A stretch of 64,000 nt of DNA from a virus. The position numbers and the translations under genes were made by a program. Location: the IMG/VR virus record IMGVR_UViG_3300035696_001556, positions 109,495 to 173,494 of that record. One strand, written 5' to 3'. Below the pieces are notes generated by a model. That model was not told the DNA's origin. It saw nothing but the letters and a program-made list of their open reading frames with translations, and did not search any database. This document shows positions 48,749 through 55,313 of this stretch, piece by piece; position 1 is the stretch's first letter; each line of letters begins with the position of its first letter.

Positions 48749-50059
48749 ATGTATAGAGATGTTTTAGGTTTTTCAATATCGCCCTTTATGCAAAGGGTCA
48801 TGAATATACATGGATTTTTTGGTTCAATCATGCGTACAGGAAAGAAATCGGAAGACAGCAGTAACAAACTTCCTCCCGGAGTACCGATCCCGGTTTTACC
48901 AGTAGACTATTTGAAAGTTCGTCCAGATAGTTGGATAGGGGGCGAAGGAGCATATGTAGTTCCCGTTGACTCAGATTGGGGACTCTGGTTCAACTTCACC
49001 ATGAATAATCCTTTTAACACAGCAGTCCTTCCTTCTATAAAAGGCATGAATCCTCTTACGGGGCAGCGTGTGAGTGGGTATGATCTTGAAGAGTATCAAG
49101 ACAAATGTCCTGTACATAACAAACCCTTCAGCAAAGGTAATCTTTGTACGGAGTGTGGTTTCAAATGGCCCTATCAGAACTATCTTGCGCATCCTGGAAA
49201 ACTTTGGGTCGACGGATTTAGGACTCCGGATGGTAACGTACGCCAGTTTTATTTTACAGAAGAGATGGCGAAATCTATCCCAGAGCTGGTAATTGGTAAA
49301 GAAGATACAGTCCCAGCATTTGGATTTTGCTTCTACAAACTCAAGGAGTATGACGGGCATTTTGAAGAAGGAAAGTACGTCAAAAACGAATTTCCAATAA
49401 ATCCTCGCTCACAATATAGCTCTTATTGTGGAGGTAGTATAGGAATAGGTACTTCTTGTGCTTCTAGTATGTTTTATTCCCCAAGTCTGAGCACTGATTT
49501 TCTTGCTAAGCCAGCAGATATGGCCAGTAGAAGTGCCCGTTACCGTAAAGGACTAGCAGGACCAAGGAAATTCTCTACTGGAGGATCAATGCTACACATT
49601 TCTGGTGTATCTTTGGACTCAGTATCTTTTAAAACTGATTTGGCGGATGCAGACAGTTCTACAAAGGCATCTTATCTGTCAGCTAGTAATACAGCCTCAA
49701 TAGAGAGTGCTTCTAATGGAACTACTCTTAATTTTAGTTCGAGTGCAGATGGTGGAGCTTCGTATGAAAATACTTTGATAGGAGATGATGAGAAAGGCAC
49801 AGATATTTTACGTGAATATGAAAGTCCTTTACGTAAATCCGCAGAGGTGGGCATCGGAGCAGGAGCAAAAATAAAACAAGCTTTTGCAAAAAGCAGTAAG
49901 TCTTTAGAAGACTGGGAGAAGAAACCGGCAGGAGTTATCAGACTGTACTTTGTCTTCCAGGAAGAATTTGAAAGATATGCTGCAGCAGGTTTTAACAATC
50001 TCGAAGGAAATGAAACAGGATACCTTGAAGGTCTCCCAGTAGGAGGATCCCATGAATAA
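48749..50059 (+). CDS. hypothetical protein with zinc ribbon and Ser/Gly-rich linker, coupled to the vWA gene
   Basis: CPVH..CTEC, WVDGF..VRQF, C-terminal GIGAGAKIKQ; overlaps the start of the vWA ORF. Confidence 0.75.
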   Translation: MYRDVLGFSISPFMQRVMNIHGFFGSIMRTGKKSEDSSNKLPPGVPIPVLPVDYLKVRPDSWIGGEGAYVVPVDSDWGLWFNFTMNNPFNTAVLPSIKGMNPLTGQRVSGYDLEEYQDKCPVHNKPFSKGNLCTECGFKWPYQNYLAHPGKLWVDGFRTPDGNVRQFYFTEEMAKSIPELVIGKEDTVPAFGFCFYKLKEYDGHFEEGKYVKNEFPINPRSQYSSYCGGSIGIGTSCASSMFYSPSLSTDFLAKPADMASRSARYRKGLAGPRKFSTGGSMLHISGVSLDSVSFKTDLADADSSTKASYLSASNTASIESASNGTTLNFSSSADGGASYENTLIGDDEKGTDILREYESPLRKSAEVGIGAGAKIKQAFAKSSKSLEDWEKKPAGVIRLYFVFQEEFERYAAAGFNNLEGNETGYLEGLPVGGSHE

Positions 50060-50762
50060 GGTAGATTTATTATTTATATGTGATATAACGGGATCTATGG
50101 GTAGCCTCATAGATGATGCCAAAAAAAGAATGAAAGATATCTTGAGCAAGCTCTCTTCAGAATTCAATGTGGATACCCAAGTAGGTTTGTCTCTCTATCG
50201 TGATCACGTATCTCAGGGGGACCCTTTTACCGTGGTTACTTTTGATCTCATGCCTATAGATAAGATCCAAGAAAAAATAGATCAGATATTCGTTGATGGG
50301 GGTGGCGACTGGCAAGAAGCAGTCCTCGATGGAATTATTGAAGGAGTTTCCAATATGTCTTGGAGAAAAGAATCCAAGCGGATTGCTTTTCTCATAGGTG
50401 ACGCTCCCCCACATGGTATGGATGAAGATACTTTTTGCTGTACTTGTGGAAAAACTTGGGGGGACGCTATCCAGGTAGCTGAAGAGAAATGTGTGCCTAT
50501 TTATTCAATACCTTTGGATGATAAAGAAGAAGTGAGGAGTTCTTTTAGGACTCTTTCTACTTTTACCGGAGGGTTGTTAATTGAAGCTGATAATGCCTTG
50601 GATGCTGTTCTGGAAACACTCAGGGATCAGTTCGGAGAGTTAAATTTAGGCTCCAGAGTATTAGATCTACTTTCAAAAGATATATCGGCAGAAGAGATTT
50701 GTAAGATGCTTAACATTACTCGGGAAAAGTTATCTGAACTTGAAACAAAAACAACAGCATAA
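50052..50762 (+). CDS. vWA domain protein with C-terminal HTH-like tail
   Basis: MIDAS DITGSM, YRDH, GGGDWQEA, IGDAPPH. Confidence 0.88.
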   Translation: MNKVDLLFICDITGSMGSLIDDAKKRMKDILSKLSSEFNVDTQVGLSLYRDHVSQGDPFTVVTFDLMPIDKIQEKIDQIFVDGGGDWQEAVLDGIIEGVSNMSWRKESKRIAFLIGDAPPHGMDEDTFCCTCGKTWGDAIQVAEEKCVPIYSIPLDDKEEVRSSFRTLSTFTGGLLIEADNALDAVLETLRDQFGELNLGSRVLDLLSKDISAEEICKMLNITREKLSELETKTTA

Positions 50763-50777
50763 AAAGGAGATAATATC

Positions 50778-51419
50778 ATGCCTAGAAAAAACCATACCGA
50801 AATAGTCTGTATCATTGACCGTTCTGGTTCCATGGAAAGCATACGGAGCGATGCTATAGGTGGATTCAATGCGTTCATAGAGGAACAGAAGAAAATTCCA
50901 GGCACTGCCTCTGTGTCTCTCGTACTTTTTGACAATGAATACGAGACGCCGTACATAAATAAAGACATTAAGCAGATCGAAGGTTTAACGGATAAAACTT
51001 TCGTGCCTCGTGGAGGTACTGCTCTTTTTGATGCTGTAGGAAAAACTATTAACAGTACGTCAGCAAAAATAGCCTCCATGAAAAAAGAGGATCGCCCAGA
51101 GAAGGTAGTCGTTTGTATTCTTACAGACGGCGAGGAGAATAGCTCAAAAGAGTTTACCGGGGATCAGATAAAAGTCATGATTGATAATCAAAAAGGCCAA
51201 TCTCAATGGAGCTTTATCTTTCTAGCAGCTAATCAGGATGCTTTTGCAACTGCCTCTACGTTCTTTTCCTCTGCGTTTTTTAGTCCGCAACTAAGTGCAG
51301 ATAGCTTGGCTGTATGTAGTTTTGCTGCAACCGAAGATGGTACAGCCAGAGCCTTTGCTGACATGGGTAAAGCAACAACCCGTTTCAGAAGTAATGTTAA
51401 AAATAAAGATGCTAAATAG
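50778..51419 (+). CDS. vWA domain protein
   Basis: MIDAS DRSGSM, PRGGTALFDA, ILTDGEENSS, WSFIFLAAN. Confidence 0.9.
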   Translation: MPRKNHTEIVCIIDRSGSMESIRSDAIGGFNAFIEEQKKIPGTASVSLVLFDNEYETPYINKDIKQIEGLTDKTFVPRGGTALFDAVGKTINSTSAKIASMKKEDRPEKVVVCILTDGEENSSKEFTGDQIKVMIDNQKGQSQWSFIFLAANQDAFATASTFFSSAFFSPQLSADSLAVCSFAATEDGTARAFADMGKATTRFRSNVKNKDAK

Positions 51420-51430
51420 AAGGGAAGTTT

Positions 51431-51655
51431 ATGGGAAGAATGACGGTGAAAAAAGCAAAAAGACTCCTTGCTGAAGCAGGATTGCCTACCGACATAAACG
51501 TCGTGATAACCAATAGCAACGGCATCTCACAGGGTTACTATCCGAATGGGATTTATCCAGGAGCTTGGCATACTTTCGACCATGCCGGATTCTGGAGAAT
51601 GGTTTTGGCTGATCCTCAGCATTGTTTACCGCCTAAGGCATCTAAAAAAACTTAA
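51431..51655 (+). CDS. small hypothetical protein
   Basis: RBS AGGGA; 74 aa. Confidence 0.6.
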   Translation: MGRMTVKKAKRLLAEAGLPTDINVVITNSNGISQGYYPNGIYPGAWHTFDHAGFWRMVLADPQHCLPPKASKKT

Positions 51656-51666
51656 AGGAGAAAAAT

Positions 51667-51951
51667 ATGAATAAAGGATGGATTTGTCCGAAATGCGGTT
51701 CTGTTTATGCTCCGTGGGTAGAGAAGTGTGAAAAATGTTGTGGTGCATACAAGAGTTGGCCAGCTTATCCTGTTCCTGTAGATCCTGGTAATACTACTCC
51801 TAGTATATTCCCTCAGCCAGGAAATGTTCCTTGGCCTGGATATCCTCATCCGTATGTGGGAGATCCATTACCTGGTCAGATTCCATCGTCGATTATTTAT
51901 GGACCACCACCGTCGACTACTTATGGTCCAATATCCATGTGTAGGAATTAA
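51667..51951 (+). CDS. small zinc-ribbon, proline-rich phage protein
   Basis: GWICPKCGSVYAPWVEKC; RBS AAGGAG. Confidence 0.7.
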   Translation: MNKGWICPKCGSVYAPWVEKCEKCCGAYKSWPAYPVPVDPGNTTPSIFPQPGNVPWPGYPHPYVGDPLPGQIPSSIIYGPPPSTTYGPISMCRN

Positions 51952-51975
51952 AAATATTCTGATTAATAAAAAAAC

Positions 51976-52004
51976 TTGACATTTTTCTTAAATCAGTGTA
52001 TATT
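51976..52004 (+). promoter_or_regulatory. sigma70-type promoter TTGACA-17-TATATT driving the ncRNA array
   Basis: Consensus -35 at 51976-51981 and -10 at 51999-52004; A-rich upstream element. Confidence 0.85.
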
Positions 52005-52057
52005 TAGTTTCAGCAGAAGAGGCAATCTCGTTTAACTAGGTCAGTCGCCCGTTCTTT

Positions 52058-52281
52058 GAAATAGTCGGTTTGCTCACATCGTGTGGCTTACATTATTATA
52101 GCAAGTAATAACACGATACTCAGTGCTCCCTGCAAATAGCAGGGGTGCAAGAGTGTCACACGCATGGAAGCCTACCGCCGTTTTATAGTGTCAACCCTAA
52201 AGTTGAAGTTATAAAATTTTAGAGCCTAAGGCGGCAAGGTTTTCATGCAAAGCAGCACAACTCGAGCAGGCCGATTGTTTC
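52058..52281 (+). ncRNA. Y-RNA-like unit 1 (multi-hairpin, non-tRNA cargo)
   Basis: 18-bp closing stem 52058-52075/52264-52281; scaffold motifs present; three internal hairpin domains. Confidence 0.8.
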
Positions 52282-52326
52282 TTTAAAACCGGAATACTGT
52301 ACCTCGTTTCAATAAGAATGATCTTT

Positions 52327-52457
52327 GAAATAGTCGGATTACTCGCATCGTCAGGCTTACATTCTATCACAGGGACAGAACGATGCTTCTACACCTGGCC
52401 GTGGGCTGGGTAAGTAGAGGCATCAAAGCATGACAACTTGAGTAGTCTGATTGTTTC
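52327..52457 (+). ncRNA. Y-RNA-like unit 2 (long-hairpin cargo)
   Basis: 18-bp closing stem 52327-52344/52440-52457; cargo GATGCTTCTAC-ACCTGGCC..GGCTGGGT-GTAGAGGCATC. Confidence 0.8.
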
Positions 52458-52523
52458 TTTAAAATAGAAATGCACCCCATCGTTCCCTGCGGGATGGTGG
52501 TAAGAAATTTGATCTTTGAAATC

Positions 52524-52674
52524 TGAGTCTTTGCTCGTACTGTTGAGGCATACATAGCTTTTTCAGCTCGTTTGGTCGAGCAATTTCCATATATTTCCAT
52601 ATAAGGAATAGGTAGCTGGTTCAAATCCGGCAGAAAGCACCAAAAATTGCATTGACGACTTGGGCAAAGACTCA
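52524..52674 (+). ncRNA. Y-RNA-like unit 3 carrying a linear tRNA-like domain (52557-52642) ending in ACCA
   Basis: 13-bp closing stem; acceptor GCTTTTT/AGAAAGC, D arm GCTC..GAGC, T arm GCTGG-TTCAAAT-CCGGC; 10-nt duplication in the anticodon arm. Confidence 0.85.
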
Positions 52675-52703
52675 CTTTTTAAAATAAATTCTTTGAAATA
52701 ACG

Positions 52704-52843
52704 TTTGGATTTTACGACCACTGTAGAGGCGTACATTGTGATTAGCTCAATTGGTAGAGCAATCGCTATTAAGCGATGGGTTCCGGAGTTCAAATCTCCG
52801 GACACATAAAATGACCGCATCAACGACTTTCGTAAAGTCCAAA
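52704..52843 (+). ncRNA. Y-RNA-like unit 4 carrying a degenerate linear tRNA-like domain (about 52736-52807)
   Basis: 14-bp closing stem; TAGCTCAATTGGTAGAGC D arm, ATCGC/GCGAT arm with 6-nt loop, CGGAG-TTCAAAT-CTCCG T arm; weak acceptor, no CCA. Confidence 0.85.
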
Positions 52844-52861
52844 TTTTTTAAAATCGATCTT

Positions 52862-53019
52862 TGAAATATTCGTGCTCGTACTGCCAGGGCATACATTTAG
52901 TTCGTTGGTTCAAATCCAACTATCTTCGCCAAACTGAAGATGTAGACCAGTGGTTAGGTCAATAGATCGCAAATCTATCATTAAAAATCTGCAATGACGA
53001 CTTGAGCACGGATGTTTCA
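52862..53019 (+). ncRNA. Y-RNA-like unit 5 carrying a circularly permuted tRNA (52899-52978)
   Basis: 16-bp closing stem; order is T arm, 3' acceptor TATCTTC-G-CCA, AACT linker, 5' acceptor GAAGATG, D arm, anticodon arm (GCA). Confidence 0.85.
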
Positions 53020-53039
53020 CCTTTACAAATAGTTCTTTG

Positions 53040-53211
53040 ACAGTGAGCAGAATGAGGTCACACTCCCACTATTGGGGCATACATATTTCGAGGTTCGACT
53101 CCTCATCCCCCGATTACCGGGGGAAAGTCCTACGGTAGGACACTTGTATTCGGAACAAGCAAGAAAAAAATTGCATCGATGACTTGAGTGTGATCTCTTT
53201 CGACTCACTGT
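53040..53211 (+). ncRNA. Y-RNA-like unit 6 carrying a circularly permuted tRNA (53090-53159)
   Basis: Interrupted 8+12-bp closing stem; GAGG-TTCGACT-CCTC, TCCCCCG-ATTAC-CGGGGGA, GTCC-TACGGTA-GGAC, CTTGT-ATTCGGA-ACAAG (TCG). Confidence 0.85.
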
Positions 53212-53224
53212 AAAAATAAAAAGG

Positions 53225-53256
53225 ATACCGGGGCAAACGTCTCGGTATTTTTTTTT
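53225..53256 (+). terminator. intrinsic terminator closing the ncRNA array
   Basis: ATACCGGGGC-AAAC-GTCTCGGTAT followed by a run of T. Confidence 0.85.
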
Positions 53257-53268
53257 GTAAAAAGTTCT

Positions 53269-53296
53269 TTAACATCGTTATGTCAAAAAGTATATT
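53269..53296 (+). promoter_or_regulatory. putative promoter TTAACA-16-TATATT for the Ubl / Ro60-like genes
   Basis: Same TATATT -10 as the other promoters in the window; 38 nt upstream of the Ubl ATG. Confidence 0.5.
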
Positions 53297-53334
53297 ATTA
53301 TAGTCGACGATAAACCGTTAACCAGGAGGTAGCC

Positions 53335-53622
53335 ATGAACGCAGTTACGAACCAAACCGTAGTCCACGTCCATTTCGACGGACGTTCCGATGACATCCCT
53401 CTGGATGTCCTTTTTCCTGTGACCCCGCCTGAGCTCTCTGCAGAGTTCGAGCGTAATGCCAGCGGTGTAGCCGCAGCAGGGTCCGCCTTCGTTCGTACAG
53501 TCAAAGAAGGTCTTGCAAATCATTACGACCGTCCGGTCAATGAGTTTGCGGACTACATCGTTGACTTCACCGAGAACCAGAACATCACGGTTCGTCCGAA
53601 GGCCGAGTTCGGTTCGAAGTAG
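53335..53622 (+). CDS. putative ubiquitin-like (beta-grasp) protein with C-terminal Gly-Ser-Lys
   Basis: 95 aa; strand-strand-helix-strand-strand pattern VHVHFDGRSDDI..VKEGLANHY..YIVD..ITVRPKAEFG; RBS AGGAGG; E1 and JAB genes nearby. Confidence 0.6.
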   Translation: MNAVTNQTVVHVHFDGRSDDIPLDVLFPVTPPELSAEFERNASGVAAAGSAFVRTVKEGLANHYDRPVNEFADYIVDFTENQNITVRPKAEFGSK

Positions 53623-53650
53623 AGTGATCGCTCTCTTTGGTCTTTTAACT

Positions 53651-53672
53651 GGGGTACTTACAAGAGTGCCCC
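53651..53672 (+). terminator. intergenic hairpin after the Ubl gene (attenuator or stabiliser)
   Basis: GGGGTACT..AGTGCCCC. Confidence 0.4.
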
Positions 53673-53706
53673 TTCATATCCATATAATATAACAAAGGAT
53701 ACCGCC

Positions 53707-55281
53707 ATGAATCAGCAACAGCGTCAGCCTACCCAGGAAGAAGACATCCGCCTGAAAATGTTAAATAGCTTTATGACTTGTCCCCACAGGGACACGGTAG
53801 AGCTAAACAAACTTCATGCTGAGTTGCAGGAAAAAGATCCTTTGTTCTATGTGCATCTTGCAGCATGGTATCAGAGGCACGGAGATCTCCGTGACCACAA
53901 AGAGATTTTCTCAGCACGTCTTATTACCGACATCTATCTGCCAAACAGAGAGGCCGGTCTTGCCCTCTTCCAGAAGCATCCTTTCTTCCTGAAGTTCAAG
54001 ATTTTCAACTTCATCAAGGGAAAAGATGTTAAGATACGTACGAAGACCGGTAAGAAAATCGTCGTCGAAATTAAAAACAAAAAGAAAACAGTCGACGAGG
54101 TCAAGATCGACAAAAAACATGTCGGACTTGACAAAAATATCCCTTCTTCTTTCTTAACCGAACTGTCACGGTACCTAAACTGGCTGGAAGCGAATCCGGA
54201 GCAGTTTGATACCGTAGCCATGAGGAATGCTTCGGATCTGAAGGCTCTTTATGTTAATCTCAGATTCAAGCATTCGAAGAGGACCAATGATATCCTCTTT
54301 GAGAAAAAGTATCCGAAGAATAGCAAAATGGCTTCTTTCAAAGCGATTATCGAAGCCAAAGATCCCACCAAGCAAGCTGAGATGATCGTAAAGGAGAAGA
54401 TCCCTTTTACGACTGCTATTGGTCTGGTCGAAGACCCGACCCCAGCTGTTTGGGTAGCACTTATCGATGCAATGAGTCCCCAGGAAGCCATTAACCACGT
54501 GGCCACCTTTGAGGAAAAAGGTCTTTTGGATAACGTGGCTACCAAAGACCTTATTATGAAGAAGCTCAAGAAAGCGGAGACGACCAAGACTGTTTCGGCT
54601 CTTAAATCTAAAGCAGCCACAGCTACGGGTCGTATCAAGAACGAAGAAGTCGTAAAACAGATGGATAACATCGCTGACAAGCAAATTAAAAAAGGCGGTG
54701 TTATCAGGGTTTCTACGGCTATCTGTGTCGATAAATCAGGTTCCATGACTAGGGCTATTCAGGTGGGCAAGAATGTCGCGGCTCTGGTTTCTGGAGCTAC
54801 GGAAGCACCGTTGCATGTGTTTGCTTTTGATCAAATGGTTTATCCAATAGTCTCCAGGGAACAAACTCTTACGGGATGGGAAGCGGCTTTCAGGCCTATT
54901 ATCGCCAATGGTAGGACCTGCATGAGTTCTTGTGCGGACTACCTTATCAAAAAGAACATCCTGGTGGAGCAGTTTGTCTTCATTACGGATGAAGGGGAAA
55001 CGGATTCTCCTACTTTTGCCTCCAAGTACCTGGAATACAAAACAAAATTTAATACCTCTCCGCATGTCGTTATTGTTCATGTCGAGGGAGGCGAGAGGTC
55101 GAGCACTTTGTTCTCGGATCGATTAAAGCAAGCAGGGATCGAGTTTGACACCTACACGCCGAAAGAAGCGGACTACTATTCTCTACCGGGGTTGATCCCA
55201 CTTCTCGCTCGGAAGACCAAACTCGATCTTCTTTACGAGATCATGGATACTCCTTTACCGGCAAGAAAAGTGTATGCTTAA
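53707..55281 (+). CDS. Ro60/TROVE-like protein: helical N-terminal domain plus C-terminal vWA domain
   Basis: 524 aa; DPLFYVHLAAWY..DLRD resembles TROVE N-termini; MIDAS DKSGSM..GRTC..FITDEGE; adjacent to Y-RNA-like array. Confidence 0.7.
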   Translation: MNQQQRQPTQEEDIRLKMLNSFMTCPHRDTVELNKLHAELQEKDPLFYVHLAAWYQRHGDLRDHKEIFSARLITDIYLPNREAGLALFQKHPFFLKFKIFNFIKGKDVKIRTKTGKKIVVEIKNKKKTVDEVKIDKKHVGLDKNIPSSFLTELSRYLNWLEANPEQFDTVAMRNASDLKALYVNLRFKHSKRTNDILFEKKYPKNSKMASFKAIIEAKDPTKQAEMIVKEKIPFTTAIGLVEDPTPAVWVALIDAMSPQEAINHVATFEEKGLLDNVATKDLIMKKLKKAETTKTVSALKSKAATATGRIKNEEVVKQMDNIADKQIKKGGVIRVSTAICVDKSGSMTRAIQVGKNVAALVSGATEAPLHVFAFDQMVYPIVSREQTLTGWEAAFRPIIANGRTCMSSCADYLIKKNILVEQFVFITDEGETDSPTFASKYLEYKTKFNTSPHVVIVHVEGGERSSTLFSDRLKQAGIEFDTYTPKEADYYSLPGLIPLLARKTKLDLLYEIMDTPLPARKVYA

Positions 55282-55313
55282 GAAGATAGGCCACTGGTTG
55301 TATGTAACCATAT

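What the first reader, a model, noticed from the sequence alone, without database searches (positions are those of the whole stretch)
52899..52978. Circularly permuted tRNA with CCA retained inside the acceptor-closing loop (unit 5)
The order is variable loop AGTTC, T arm GTTGG-TTCAAAT-CCAAC, 3' acceptor TATCTTC, discriminator G, CCA (52929-52931), a 4-nt linker AACT, 5' acceptor GAAGATG, TA, D arm GACC-AGTGGTTA-GGTC, A, and anticodon arm ATAGA-TCGCAAA-TCTAT (GCA, with C instead of U at position 33). All four arms are present, broken at position 43/44 and hung on the scaffold. Known YrlA RNAs have T-acceptor-D order but replace the anticodon arm with the Ro stem; here the anticodon arm is kept. 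Permuted tRNA genes are established in some algae and archaea. Inference: this is either an end-less, non-chargeable tRNA mimic or a precursor in which cutting the linker exposes a real CCA end on a two-piece RNA.
Basis: partly seen in the sequence, partly recalled or inferred. Interest (0 to 1): 0.88.

Follow-up and report, generated by a model that had tools for sequence, protein, structure and literature searches.

The report
Permuted tRNA mimic on phage Y-RNA
These 80 bases are a complete tRNA look-alike written in rotated order, carried on one of six small RNA genes beside a hidden Ro60-type protein in a huge phage; it is a new variant of the known bacterial "Y RNA" tRNA mimics, not a working tRNA gene.

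Summary
Joining 52936-52978 to 52899-52931 gives a 76-nt cloverleaf that ARAGORN calls tRNA-Cys(GCA) with a CCA end. In native order no tRNA is called. A covariance model built only from 19 similar modules of other phage contigs finds 52899-52978 full length (68.8 bits, E about 1e-14).

The module sits in unit 5 of six tandem scaffolded RNA genes (52050-53225), which have one promoter and one terminator. They lie upstream of a 524-aa protein with no Pfam hit whose predicted structure matches Ro60/Rsr over its whole length.

I found 55 distinct scaffold-flanked permuted modules next to homologues of this protein. Of these, 42 keep a 5-bp/7-nt anticodon arm, 9 start the acceptor loop with NCCA and 9 more with NCC. 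In the closest relative the scaffold is about 98% identical and the module about 60%, with 8 compensatory double changes across all four helices and GCCA kept.

The best reading is a YrlA-like tRNA-mimic effector module of a phage Y-like RNA. C33 and G73 argue against decoding. Whether RNase P opens the loop, as in M. smegmatis YrlA, is open. The Rfam YrlA model and the CGAA motif are not met, so this is a new variant of a known kind. The scan noted the same class before on other phage DNA.

The parts
51976..52004 (+). Promoter-like site (TTGACA, 17 nt, TATATT) ahead of the six-unit RNA array
   Evidence: 11 of 12 consensus matches, the best site in the region. A consensus match only.
52050..53225 (+). 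Array of six tandem scaffolded small-RNA genes; unit 5 is about 52855-53025
   Evidence: GGCNTACAT cores at 52085, 52354, 52547, 52728, 52888 and 53076; repeat families; each unit folds into a long outer stem that encloses a variable module.
52862..52878 (+). Unit 5 outer stem, 5' strand; pairs with 53003-53019 (17 bp)
   Evidence: MFE equals centroid. Identical in the relative L023.
52879..52896 (+). Unit 5 conserved 'handle', 5' side: small internal loop, short helices, GGCAUACAU
   Evidence: A TACA motif lies just upstream of 55 of 58 permuted modules in related loci. Its role as the Ro60-homologue binding site is inferred.
52899..52903 (+). tRNA positions 44-48 (AGUUC); C48 can form the Levitt pair with G15
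52904..52920 (+). T arm, 5 bp with loop UUCAAAU
   Evidence: covariation.
52921..52927 (+). 3' strand of the acceptor stem (positions 66-72)
   Evidence: Seven pairs with 52936-52942, one of them G-U. Two double compensatory changes against L023.
52928..52931 (+). Discriminator G73 and encoded CCA, inside the acceptor-closing loop
   Evidence: GCCA is kept in the L023 orthologue. NCCA starts the loop in 9 of 55 related modules, against about 0.9 expected.
52932..52935 (+). 4-nt linker AACU; U at -1 before the 5' acceptor strand (candidate RNase P site between 52935 and 52936)
   Evidence: U(-1) occurs in 7 of 8 distinct NCCA loops (counted from the listing). Cleavage is inferred, not shown.
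52936..52942 (+). 5' strand of the acceptor stem (positions 1-7)
52945..52960 (+). D arm, 4 bp with loop AGUGGUUA containing G18G19
52962..52978 (+). Anticodon arm, 5 bp with 7-nt loop UCGCAAA (GCA; C33 instead of U33)
   Evidence: Three double compensatory changes against L023. All 5 pairs of this helix covary in A2. 42 of 55 related modules have such an arm.
52979..53002 (+). A-rich 3' linker and 3' side of the conserved handle (..AAAAAUCUGCAAUGACGACU)
   Evidence: 35 of 36 bases identical to L023.
53003..53019 (+). Unit 5 outer stem, 3' strand
53225..53256 (+). Terminator-like hairpin (AUACCG...CGGUAU) followed by a run of nine T, after unit 6
   Evidence: Read from the sequence. The simple scan did not list it, because the stem has an imperfect middle.
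53335..53622 (+). Conserved 95-aa protein between the array and the Ro60 homologue
   Evidence: ORF. A 94-95-aa gene lies in the same place in L023, L025, L027 and others. No Pfam hit.
53707..55281 (+). Divergent Ro60/Rsr homologue (helical ring plus vWA domain), 524 aa
   Evidence: No Pfam or PDB sequence hit. The AF2 model (pLDDT 82) matches human and Xenopus Ro60, D. radiodurans Rsr and phage phiLo Ro60 over its full length, TM about 0.6, E 1e-9 to 1e-10. More than 885 homologues, many on 100-570-kb phage contigs.

Best explanation
Unit 5 is a gene for a Y-RNA-like small RNA of a huge phage. Its two ends pair into a 17-bp stem followed by a conserved 'handle'. I infer that the handle is bound by the neighbouring Ro60-type ring protein. 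The variable effector module is a complete tRNA mimic with T arm, acceptor stem, D arm and anticodon arm. Its order is circularly permuted, so the handle enters at the variable-loop position (43/44) and the acceptor stem is closed by the loop GCCAAACU. The module keeps the tRNA elbow and core tertiary pairs but has C33 and G73, so it is not a decoding tRNA-Cys. By analogy with YrlA, it most likely presents a tRNA shape to a tRNA-binding factor and thereby tethers that factor to the Ro60 ring. The sequence probably arose from a tandem tRNA pair: the 3' half of copy 1 with its CCA, a 4-nt spacer, then the 5' half of copy 2. Shown here: the anatomy, its recurrence and covariation, and the Ro60 fold of the neighbour. 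Inferred: Ro60 binding, the tethering role, and any cleavage of the loop.
For: Re-permuted sequence is called tRNA-Cys by ARAGORN; nothing is called in native order. The leave-out covariance model R1, built from 19 modules of other contigs, hits 52899-52978 at 68.8 bits, E about 1e-14, full length, and unit 6 at 55.6 bits. These are the only two hits in the 173-kb record. No chance hits in 200 simulated windows. Eleven modules show 94.8% paired cells, and 19 of 21 pairs have changes on both sides, including all 5 pairs of the anticodon stem. The orthologous slot in L023 has a scaffold about 98% identical, a module about 60% identical, 8 double compensatory changes and GCCA kept. 55 distinct scaffold-flanked permuted modules lie beside homologues of the same protein, 42 of them with an anticodon arm. 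46 of 58 re-permuted modules are called tRNA by ARAGORN, against 0 of 120 in native order. The neighbour has the Ro60 fold. Sister loci get significant but sub-threshold hits to Rfam YrlA (L108 46.6 bits, L104 40.5 bits full length). Published YrlA is described as a circularly permuted tRNA-like domain with a closed acceptor stem, bound by Rsr (PMC4201824; 10.1101/312249). A phage Ro60 binds phage-encoded Y-like RNAs (PMC12135203).
Against: The Rfam YrlA model gives no hit on this unit even at E<=10. The CGAA / GNCGAAN0-1G motif of known Ro60-binding modules is absent from the whole array. The protein is Ro60-like only by predicted fold, at 11-16% identity. The modules in the covariation set were picked with a pairing descriptor, so those counts lean towards the structure; the leave-out model and the scaffold-defined orthologue reduce this bias but do not remove it. 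The near-identical scaffold with a very different module could reflect cassette replacement rather than stepwise compensatory evolution.
Confidence: 0.8

Rival explanations
1. Precursor of a two-piece RNA. Host RNase P cuts between U52935 and G52936, and 3' exonucleases trim AACU back to the encoded CCA. The two halves stay held together by the acceptor stem and the scaffold, giving a nicked full tRNA with a free CCA end on the Ro60 particle. This refines the best explanation rather than excluding it.
For: The acceptor stem has 7 bp; Chen et al. name that length as the reason M. smegmatis YrlA, unlike other YrlAs, is cut by RNase P and then gains CCA in vivo (PMC4201824). The loop carries G73-CCA, and U(-1) occurs in 7 of 8 distinct NCCA loops (listing); U(-1) and RCCA are known recognition features of bacterial RNase P (my own knowledge). 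NCCA or NCC starts 18 of 55 loops, against about 3.4 expected for CC. GCCA is conserved in the L023 orthologue while the stems changed. In some loci NCCA is followed by a 25-35-nt hairpin, like a trailer or spacer.
Against: Most family members (37 of 55) close the acceptor stem with other loops, many of them GNRA or UUCG tetraloops, which argues that a closed hairpin is the usual functional state. CCA and U(-1) could simply be inherited from a tandem tRNA ancestor. An 8-nt closed loop may be a poor RNase P substrate. No end data exist.
Confidence: 0.25
2. A genuine permuted tRNA gene. The scaffold is removed, positions 43 and 44 are ligated, and the acceptor loop is opened to give a functional tRNA-Cys, as for the permuted tRNA genes of Cyanidioschyzon merolae.
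For: All four arms and the CCA are present, and ARAGORN accepts the re-permuted sequence. The order, 3' half then 5' half with a short joining sequence, is that of algal permuted tRNA genes (my own knowledge).
Against: It has C33 instead of the near-universal U33, and G73 where bacterial CysRS needs U73 (my own knowledge). The same scaffold slot in L023 holds a UCA-anticodon module, so decoding identity is not conserved. Sister units have 6-nt or duplicated anticodon loops. Units 1 and 2 share the same scaffold with non-tRNA cargo. No RtcB, Rnl2 or CCA-adding enzyme was found in the 173-kb fragment, although that fragment is only 37% of the genome. I did not see a bulge-helix-bulge motif at the junction.
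Confidence: 0.03
3. A decoy or bait for tRNA-directed host defence or phage offence, such as anticodon nucleases or tRNA-modifying enzymes. The retained anticodon arm would be the functional surface, with the Ro60 ring capturing or handing over the bound enzyme or cleaved RNA. This is compatible with the best explanation and specifies the partner.
For: The anticodon arm is kept in 42 of 55 modules, mostly with tRNA-like 7-nt loops. The 'anticodons' are diverse and rich in Asn, Lys, Ile, Tyr, Ser and stop types. Ro60/TROVE proteins in jumbo phages have been discussed among RNA-repair and conflict systems (PMC7824862).
Against: Purely circumstantial. No nuclease or repair gene was identified beside the array. 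Unit 5 itself has C33, which weakens its mimicry of an anticodon loop.
Confidence: 0.15
4. A decaying remnant of two tandem tRNA genes, with no function of its own.
For: A T arm, acceptor 3' strand, CCA, short spacer, acceptor 5' strand and D arm is exactly what a tRNA-tRNA junction looks like. One model hit in L022 is such a junction of apparent true tRNAs with no scaffold. Chen et al. warn of this false positive.
Against: No 5' half precedes the T arm and no 3' half follows the anticodon arm. Instead there is a conserved handle and a 17-bp closing stem. The architecture recurs in 55 modules, with compensatory changes. The array has its own promoter and terminator.
Confidence: 0.03

Closest known systems
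YrlA of Salmonella Typhimurium (Y RNA-like A, Rfam RF02553; crystal structure of the tRNA-like domain, 10.1101/312249)
   Same: Encoded beside a Ro60-type gene. The ends pair into a stem. The effector module has T arm, closed acceptor-like hairpin and D arm in that order, with tRNA core tertiary nucleotides. It is described in print as resembling a circularly permuted tRNA.
   Different: YrlA has no anticodon loop; its anticodon-stem equivalent runs on into the Ro60-binding module. Here a separate 5-bp/7-nt anticodon hairpin is kept and the scaffold enters at position 43/44. YrlA has a 6-bp acceptor stem without CCA. This RNA lacks the CGAA motif and does not match the Rfam model.
YrlA of Mycobacterium smegmatis (PMC4201824)
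   Same: A 7-bp acceptor stem in a permuted tRNA-like module. The closing loop is cut by RNase P in vitro and in vivo, and the 5' piece ends in CCA, giving a two-piece Rsr-bound RNA. This is the direct precedent for the 'precursor' reading.
   Different: In M. smegmatis the terminal CA is added after cleavage; here the full GCCA is encoded. No anticodon arm is described there. Cleavage of unit 5 is untested.
Yrn1 of Deinococcus radiodurans (PMC4201824)
   Same: A Y RNA that can be modelled with an 'anticodon arm' (5-bp stem) in addition to a T arm.
   Different: In Yrn1 the arm lies between the T- and D-like elements (non-permuted orientation), its loop has 6 nt, the D arm is doubtful and there is no acceptor stem with CCA. 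It resembles units 3 and 4 of this array more than unit 5.
Thermus phage phiLo Ro60 with Yrl1 and Yrl2 (PMC12135203; PDB 9KOP, 9L5Y)
   Same: A phage-encoded Ro60 homologue with Y-like RNAs encoded just upstream. The protein is among the fold matches of the window's protein.
   Different: The phiLo Yrls were identified by the CGAA motif and a stem-bulge-stem shape; no tRNA-like module is reported. Here there are six RNAs, no CGAA motif, and tRNA-like cargo.
Circularly permuted tRNA genes of Cyanidioschyzon merolae and some archaea; two-piece tmRNA from permuted ssrA genes in alpha-proteobacteria (my own knowledge, not checked here)
   Same: The 3' half is encoded before the 5' half, with the acceptor ends joined by a short sequence. 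Permuted ssrA shows that a permuted gene can yield a two-piece RNA with a tRNA-like CCA end.
   Different: Those yield functional tRNAs or tmRNA through defined processing. Here the break at 43/44 carries a conserved protein-binding-type scaffold, decoding features are degenerate, and the partner gene is Ro60-like.

Membership tests
YrlA / bacterial and phage Y RNAs | Encoded next to a Ro60/Rsr (TROVE ring plus vWA) gene | tested here: met
   The 524-aa protein 690 bp downstream has the Ro60 fold by AF2 plus Foldseek. It is not detectable by Pfam or by PDB sequence search.
YrlA / bacterial and phage Y RNAs | Match to the Rfam RF02553 covariance model at the gathering score (69 bits) | tested here: not met
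   No YrlA hit in 51500-53400 even at E<=10, and none in the 173-kb record. Sister loci reach 31-47 bits, significant but below the cut-off.
YrlA / bacterial and phage Y RNAs | Effector module ordered T arm, closed acceptor-like hairpin, D arm, with tRNA core tertiary nucleotides | tested here: met
YrlA / bacterial and phage Y RNAs | No anticodon loop: the anticodon-stem equivalent continues into the Ro60-binding stem | tested here: not met
   A separate anticodon hairpin lies at 52962-52978, supported by covariation and by the tRNA and R1 models.
YrlA / bacterial and phage Y RNAs | GNCGAAN0-1G (CGAA) motif in the Ro60-binding module | tested here: not met
   No CGAA anywhere in 52040-53230. 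A different conserved handle is present (GGCNUACAU ... UGCANUGAYGACUUG).
YrlA / bacterial and phage Y RNAs | Bound by Ro60/Rsr in vivo | not testable with these tools
   Needs co-immunoprecipitation or EMSA.
Canonical tRNA gene | Contiguous cloverleaf found by tRNA detectors in genomic order | tested here: not met
   ARAGORN makes 0 calls in the window. The Rfam tRNA model aligns only the 5' half, with a spurious T arm and 3' acceptor strand. A cloverleaf appears only after re-permutation.
Canonical tRNA gene | Decoding-competent anticodon loop (U33) and identity elements for its anticodon (U73 for Cys) | tested here: not met
   C33 and G73. The requirement for U33 and U73 rests on my own knowledge.
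Permuted tRNA genes (C. merolae type) | 3' half upstream of 5' half in one transcript, with the acceptor ends joined by a short intervening sequence | tested here: met
Permuted tRNA genes (C. merolae type) | Processing through a circular intermediate to a contiguous functional tRNA | not testable with these tools
   No read data were available. Degenerate decoding features and a swapped anticodon in the orthologue argue against it.

The most novel reading that the evidence does not exclude
A subclass of these phage Y-like RNAs, unit 5 included, may be opened by RNase P in the acceptor loop. That would give a Ro60-tethered, nicked but complete tRNA with a genuine CCA end and an anticodon arm. 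Such an RNA could engage tRNA enzymes, possibly even be aminoacylated, or act as bait for anticodon-directed nucleases in phage-host conflict. The family would also be a living record of how YrlA-type mimics arose from tandem tRNA genes.
Probability: 0.2. Interest if true: 0.85.

Novelty: new variant of a known kind. Interest (0 to 1): 0.6.

Why it matters
Y RNAs that mimic tRNA are known, but the published ones lack an anticodon arm and mostly lack a CCA end, and their effector partner is still unidentified. This phage family keeps the whole tRNA (elbow, anticodon arm and, in about a sixth of members, an encoded NCCA) on a handle that standard RNA and protein models miss. Three consequences follow.

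- It widens the Ro60/Y-RNA system to a large clade of huge phages whose Ro60 is invisible to Pfam.
[quoted passage not shown] Here the acceptor hairpin is plainly the 3' acceptor strand, CCA, a spacer and the 5' acceptor strand.
- It offers natural variants (closed tetraloop versus NCCA loop, with or without an anticodon arm) for testing which tRNA surface the unknown effector reads, and whether RNase P processing is part of the mechanism.

Tried and rejected
- **Phage BLAST of 52000-55300:** this gave only a 59-nt match of unit 4 to Proteus-phage tRNA-Lys and nothing for unit 5.
- **Scaffold pattern in viral contigs:** the exact pattern CTCGTACTG-N3-6-GGCATACAT found three chance matches inside coding sequence and no new arrays.
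- **Closest Ro60 homologues (P0003-P0005):** their contigs were too short or had no DNA available, so only L023 and L025 gave orthologous arrays.
- **RNA-processing genes in the 173-kb record:** searches for RtcB, Rnl2-type ligase and CCA-adding enzyme found none. The record is about 37% complete, so this is uninformative.
- **Closing helix at the module base:** I tested whether the U-rich 5' linker and A-rich 3' linker form a conserved helix. Complementarity is only weak (mean -1.0 against -0.5 kcal/mol with mismatched partners, p about 0.01), so I do not claim that helix.
- **Reviews:** the papers by Sim and Wolin and by Burroughs and Aravind were not held.
- **Readings considered and rejected:**
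  - Chance.
  - A junction of two real tRNA genes: the flanks are scaffold, not tRNA halves.
  - A functional tRNA-Cys: C33, G73, and a different anticodon in the orthologue.

Full report
**Observation.**
- Positions 44-48, AGTTC: 52899-52903.
- T arm: 52904-52920.
- 3' acceptor strand TATCTTC: 52921-52927.
- G73: 52928. CCA: 52929-52931. Linker AACT: 52932-52935.
- 5' acceptor strand GAAGATG: 52936-52942.
- D arm: 52945-52960.
- Anticodon arm ATAGA-TCGCAAA-TCTAT: 52962-52978, with C at position 33.

ARAGORN finds no tRNA in the native window. When 52936-52978 is placed before 52899-52931, it calls a 76-nt tRNA-Cys(GCA) with a CCA end and a regular cloverleaf. U8, A14, G15 with C48, G18G19, A21, A26 and the T-loop T54-T55-C56-A58 are all present. 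The Rfam tRNA model scores the 5' half (acceptor strand, D arm, anticodon arm) at 31.9 bits, above its gathering score.

**More than chance.** A strict descriptor was used: T arm, then a 7-position acceptor hairpin, 2 nt, a D arm, 1 nt, and a 5-bp/7-nt anticodon arm. It hits only this site on both strands of the window and hit nothing in 200 simulated windows. The whole unit (52862-53021) folds with all four arms in both the MFE and centroid structures, z = -5.4.

**Context.** The module is the cargo of unit 5 in six tandem units spanning 52050-53225.
- Each unit has a long outer stem of its own sequence, a small internal loop, short helices and a conserved GGCNUACAU on the 5' side. The 3' side carries an A-rich stretch followed by ..UGCANUGAYGACUUG.
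- A strong promoter-like site lies at 51976-52004. A hairpin followed by a run of nine T lies at 53225-53256.
- Downstream come a conserved 95-aa ORF and a 524-aa ORF (53707-55281).
- The 524-aa protein has no Pfam or PDB sequence match. Its AlphaFold model (pLDDT 82) matches human and Xenopus Ro60, D. radiodurans Rsr and Thermus phage phiLo Ro60 over its full length (TM about 0.6, E 1e-9 to 1e-10). It is therefore a divergent Ro60, a helical ring plus a vWA domain.
- It has more than 885 homologues, many on phage contigs of 100-570 kb.
- The window lies in a 173-kb virus record estimated to be 37% complete.

**Recurrence.** The regions upstream of the homologues carry the same handle and clusters of T loops.
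- Eleven hand-parsed permuted modules align in register. Of their cells, 94.8% are paired, and 19 of 21 pairs show changes on both sides, including all five pairs of the anticodon stem. Slid controls drop to 36-48% paired. These sequences were chosen with a pairing descriptor, so the counts are biased towards the structure.
- To offset that bias I built a covariance model (R1) from 19 modules of other contigs, excluding this window and its nearest relative. R1 finds 52899-52978 full length at 68.8 bits (E about 1e-14) and unit 6 at 55.6 bits. These are the only two matches in the 173-kb record.
- Across 98 sources R1 gives 120 matches. After removing duplicates and requiring a complete acceptor hairpin, 58 modules remain, of which 55 are flanked by the handle motif. 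Of those 55, 42 have a 5-bp/7-nt anticodon arm.
- ARAGORN of the 58 re-permuted modules tRNA, with many different anticodons. It of 120 in native order.

**A test independent of my descriptor.** L023 (Ro60 84% identical) has, in the same scaffold slot, a unit whose scaffold is about 98% identical to unit 5 but whose module is only about 60% identical.
- That module again reads T arm, 7-bp acceptor stem, GCCA, a 5-nt linker, D arm and anticodon arm.
- It carries 8 double compensatory changes: 2 in the T stem, 2 in the acceptor stem, 1 in the D stem and 3 in the anticodon stem.
- Its 'anticodon' is different (UCA).
- Either the helices are under selection or whole cassettes are exchanged. In both cases the four-arm architecture with GCCA is what is preserved, not a decoding identity.

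**The CCA.**
- Among the 55 scaffold-flanked modules, 9 acceptor loops start with NCCA and 9 more with NCC. About 0.9 and 3.4 would be expected by chance.
- Many of the other 37 are GNRA or UUCG tetraloops.
- In 7 of 8 distinct NCCA loops the base before the 5' acceptor strand is U (listing).
- In some loci NCCA is followed by a 25-35-nt hairpin.
- Non-permuted modules in the same arrays often end in NCCA before the A-rich linker, so the CCA travels with the acceptor strand, not with the scaffold.
- Retention of CCA is therefore a recurrent minority state. It fits descent from tandem tRNA genes that encode CCA. One true tRNA-tRNA junction of that kind appears in L022.
- It is also compatible with processing of a subclass.

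**Comparison with the literature.**
- Chen et al. 2014 (PMC4201824) showed that YrlA RNAs next to Rsr mimic the T arm, acceptor stem and D arm of tRNA.
- They also showed that M. smegmatis YrlA, the one with a 7-bp acceptor stem, is cut by RNase P. Its 5' piece then acquires CCA, and both pieces are recovered with Rsr.
- Wang et al. 2018 (10.1101/312249) solved the YrlA tRNA-like domain. [quoted passage not shown]
- They also relay the idea that YrlA came from dimeric tRNA transcripts, with the acceptor-like stem derived from the spacer.
- Phage Ro60 binding phage Y-like RNAs is shown for Thermus phage phiLo, where the RNAs were recognised by a CGAA motif (PMC12135203).

**How unit 5 compares.** It shares the gene neighbourhood, the permuted order and the tRNA core with YrlA. 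It differs in four ways:
- It keeps a separate anticodon hairpin, so the scaffold enters at 43/44, the variable-arm position, instead of replacing the anticodon arm.
- It encodes GCCA in the loop.
- It has no CGAA motif.
- It does not match Rfam YrlA.

Three-arm and some four-arm units in sister loci do get significant sub-threshold YrlA scores (31-47 bits). That ties the family to YrlA as a distant relative. I therefore class unit 5 as a new variant of a known kind, not a listed member.

**Mechanism.** The best-supported reading (0.8) is a tRNA-mimic effector module on a Y-like RNA. I infer that the conserved handle is held by the Ro60 homologue and that the tRNA shape recruits a tRNA-binding partner to the ring.
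- Decoding is unlikely. C33 replaces U33, and G73 replaces the U73 that CysRS needs (my own knowledge). The orthologous slot carries another anticodon, and sister units have 6-nt or duplicated anticodon loops.
- Whether the GCCAAACU loop is cut between 52935 and 52936 and trimmed to CCA is open (0.25). The 7-bp stem, RCCA, U(-1) and the M. smegmatis precedent speak for it. The predominance of other loops, many of them tetraloops, in the family speaks against it being general.
- A decoy or bait role for the anticodon arm in phage-host conflict is possible but only circumstantial.
- A true permuted tRNA gene and a dead tRNA-dimer remnant are each unlikely (0.03).

**Limits.** The proposed helix between the U-rich and A-rich linkers is weak. 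Several reviews could not be read. Earlier notes of this scan describe the same kind of object on this window (unit 6, the array) and on other phage genomes. I used them as leads only and tested the unit-5 claims independently.

Noticed in passing
window 52557-52642 (unit 3) and 52736-52808 (unit 4): These two units carry tRNA-like modules in normal order. Unit 3 ends in ACCA and has a 10-nt tandem duplication (ATTTCCATAT twice) in its anticodon arm. Unit 4 scores 36.1 bits with Rfam tRNA, has a 6-nt anticodon loop, and is 87% identical over 59 nt to tRNA-Lys genes of Proteus phages.
   Followed up: partly
window 52855-53030 versus L023:2266-2440: The scaffold is about 98% identical while the tRNA-like cargo is only about 60% identical and has a different anticodon (GCA versus UCA). 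This looks like cassette exchange or very fast module evolution inside a fixed handle.
   Followed up: partly
L066:1729-1835(-), L102:357-467(-), L102:128-238(-), L031:2329-2429: Permuted modules in which the acceptor loop is NCCA followed by a 25-35-nt hairpin, ending in GAT, GAC or CGT before the 5' acceptor strand. The arrangement resembles a trailer or spacer that could be excised.
   Followed up: no
L005:3486-3565, L007:3478-3557, L055:1608-1684, L084:2415-2491, L094:180-258: These modules have a class-II-type D arm (GCCGAGYGGTT.AAGGC), and two of them have a GCU (Ser) anticodon. The scaffold sits where the long variable arm of such tRNAs would be. This hints that some modules arose by opening a tRNA-Ser-type variable arm.
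   Followed up: no
58 re-permuted modules: The 'anticodons' are diverse but rich in Asn, Lys, Ile, Tyr and Ser. They also include stop-codon readers (UCA three times; UUA on two near-identical contigs, L065 and L066).
   Followed up: no
window 53335-53622; also L023:3121-3405, L025:3149-3436, L027:288-572: A 94-95-aa protein with no family match always lies between the RNA array and the Ro60 homologue. Prok-JAB and ThiF/E1 genes follow downstream in L025, L027 and the contig of P0004.
   Followed up: no
window 50052-50762 and 50778-51419: Two adjacent vWA-domain proteins lie just upstream of the RNA array. The same arrangement is seen in L025.
   Followed up: no
L023:5295-6452 and L024:2482-3639: A Cas12f1-like TnpB (PF07282) gene with a small RHH gene is inserted right after the Ro60 homologue in the closest relative. 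It is absent at that place in the window.
   Followed up: no
window 52053, 52322, 52513, 52690, 52858 (and the TCTTTGACA variant at about 53034): TCTTTGAAAT precedes each unit, and a similar TTCTTTAACA overlaps the -35 of the promoter-like site at 53269. Its role (processing site, promoter element or antitermination box) is unknown.
   Followed up: no
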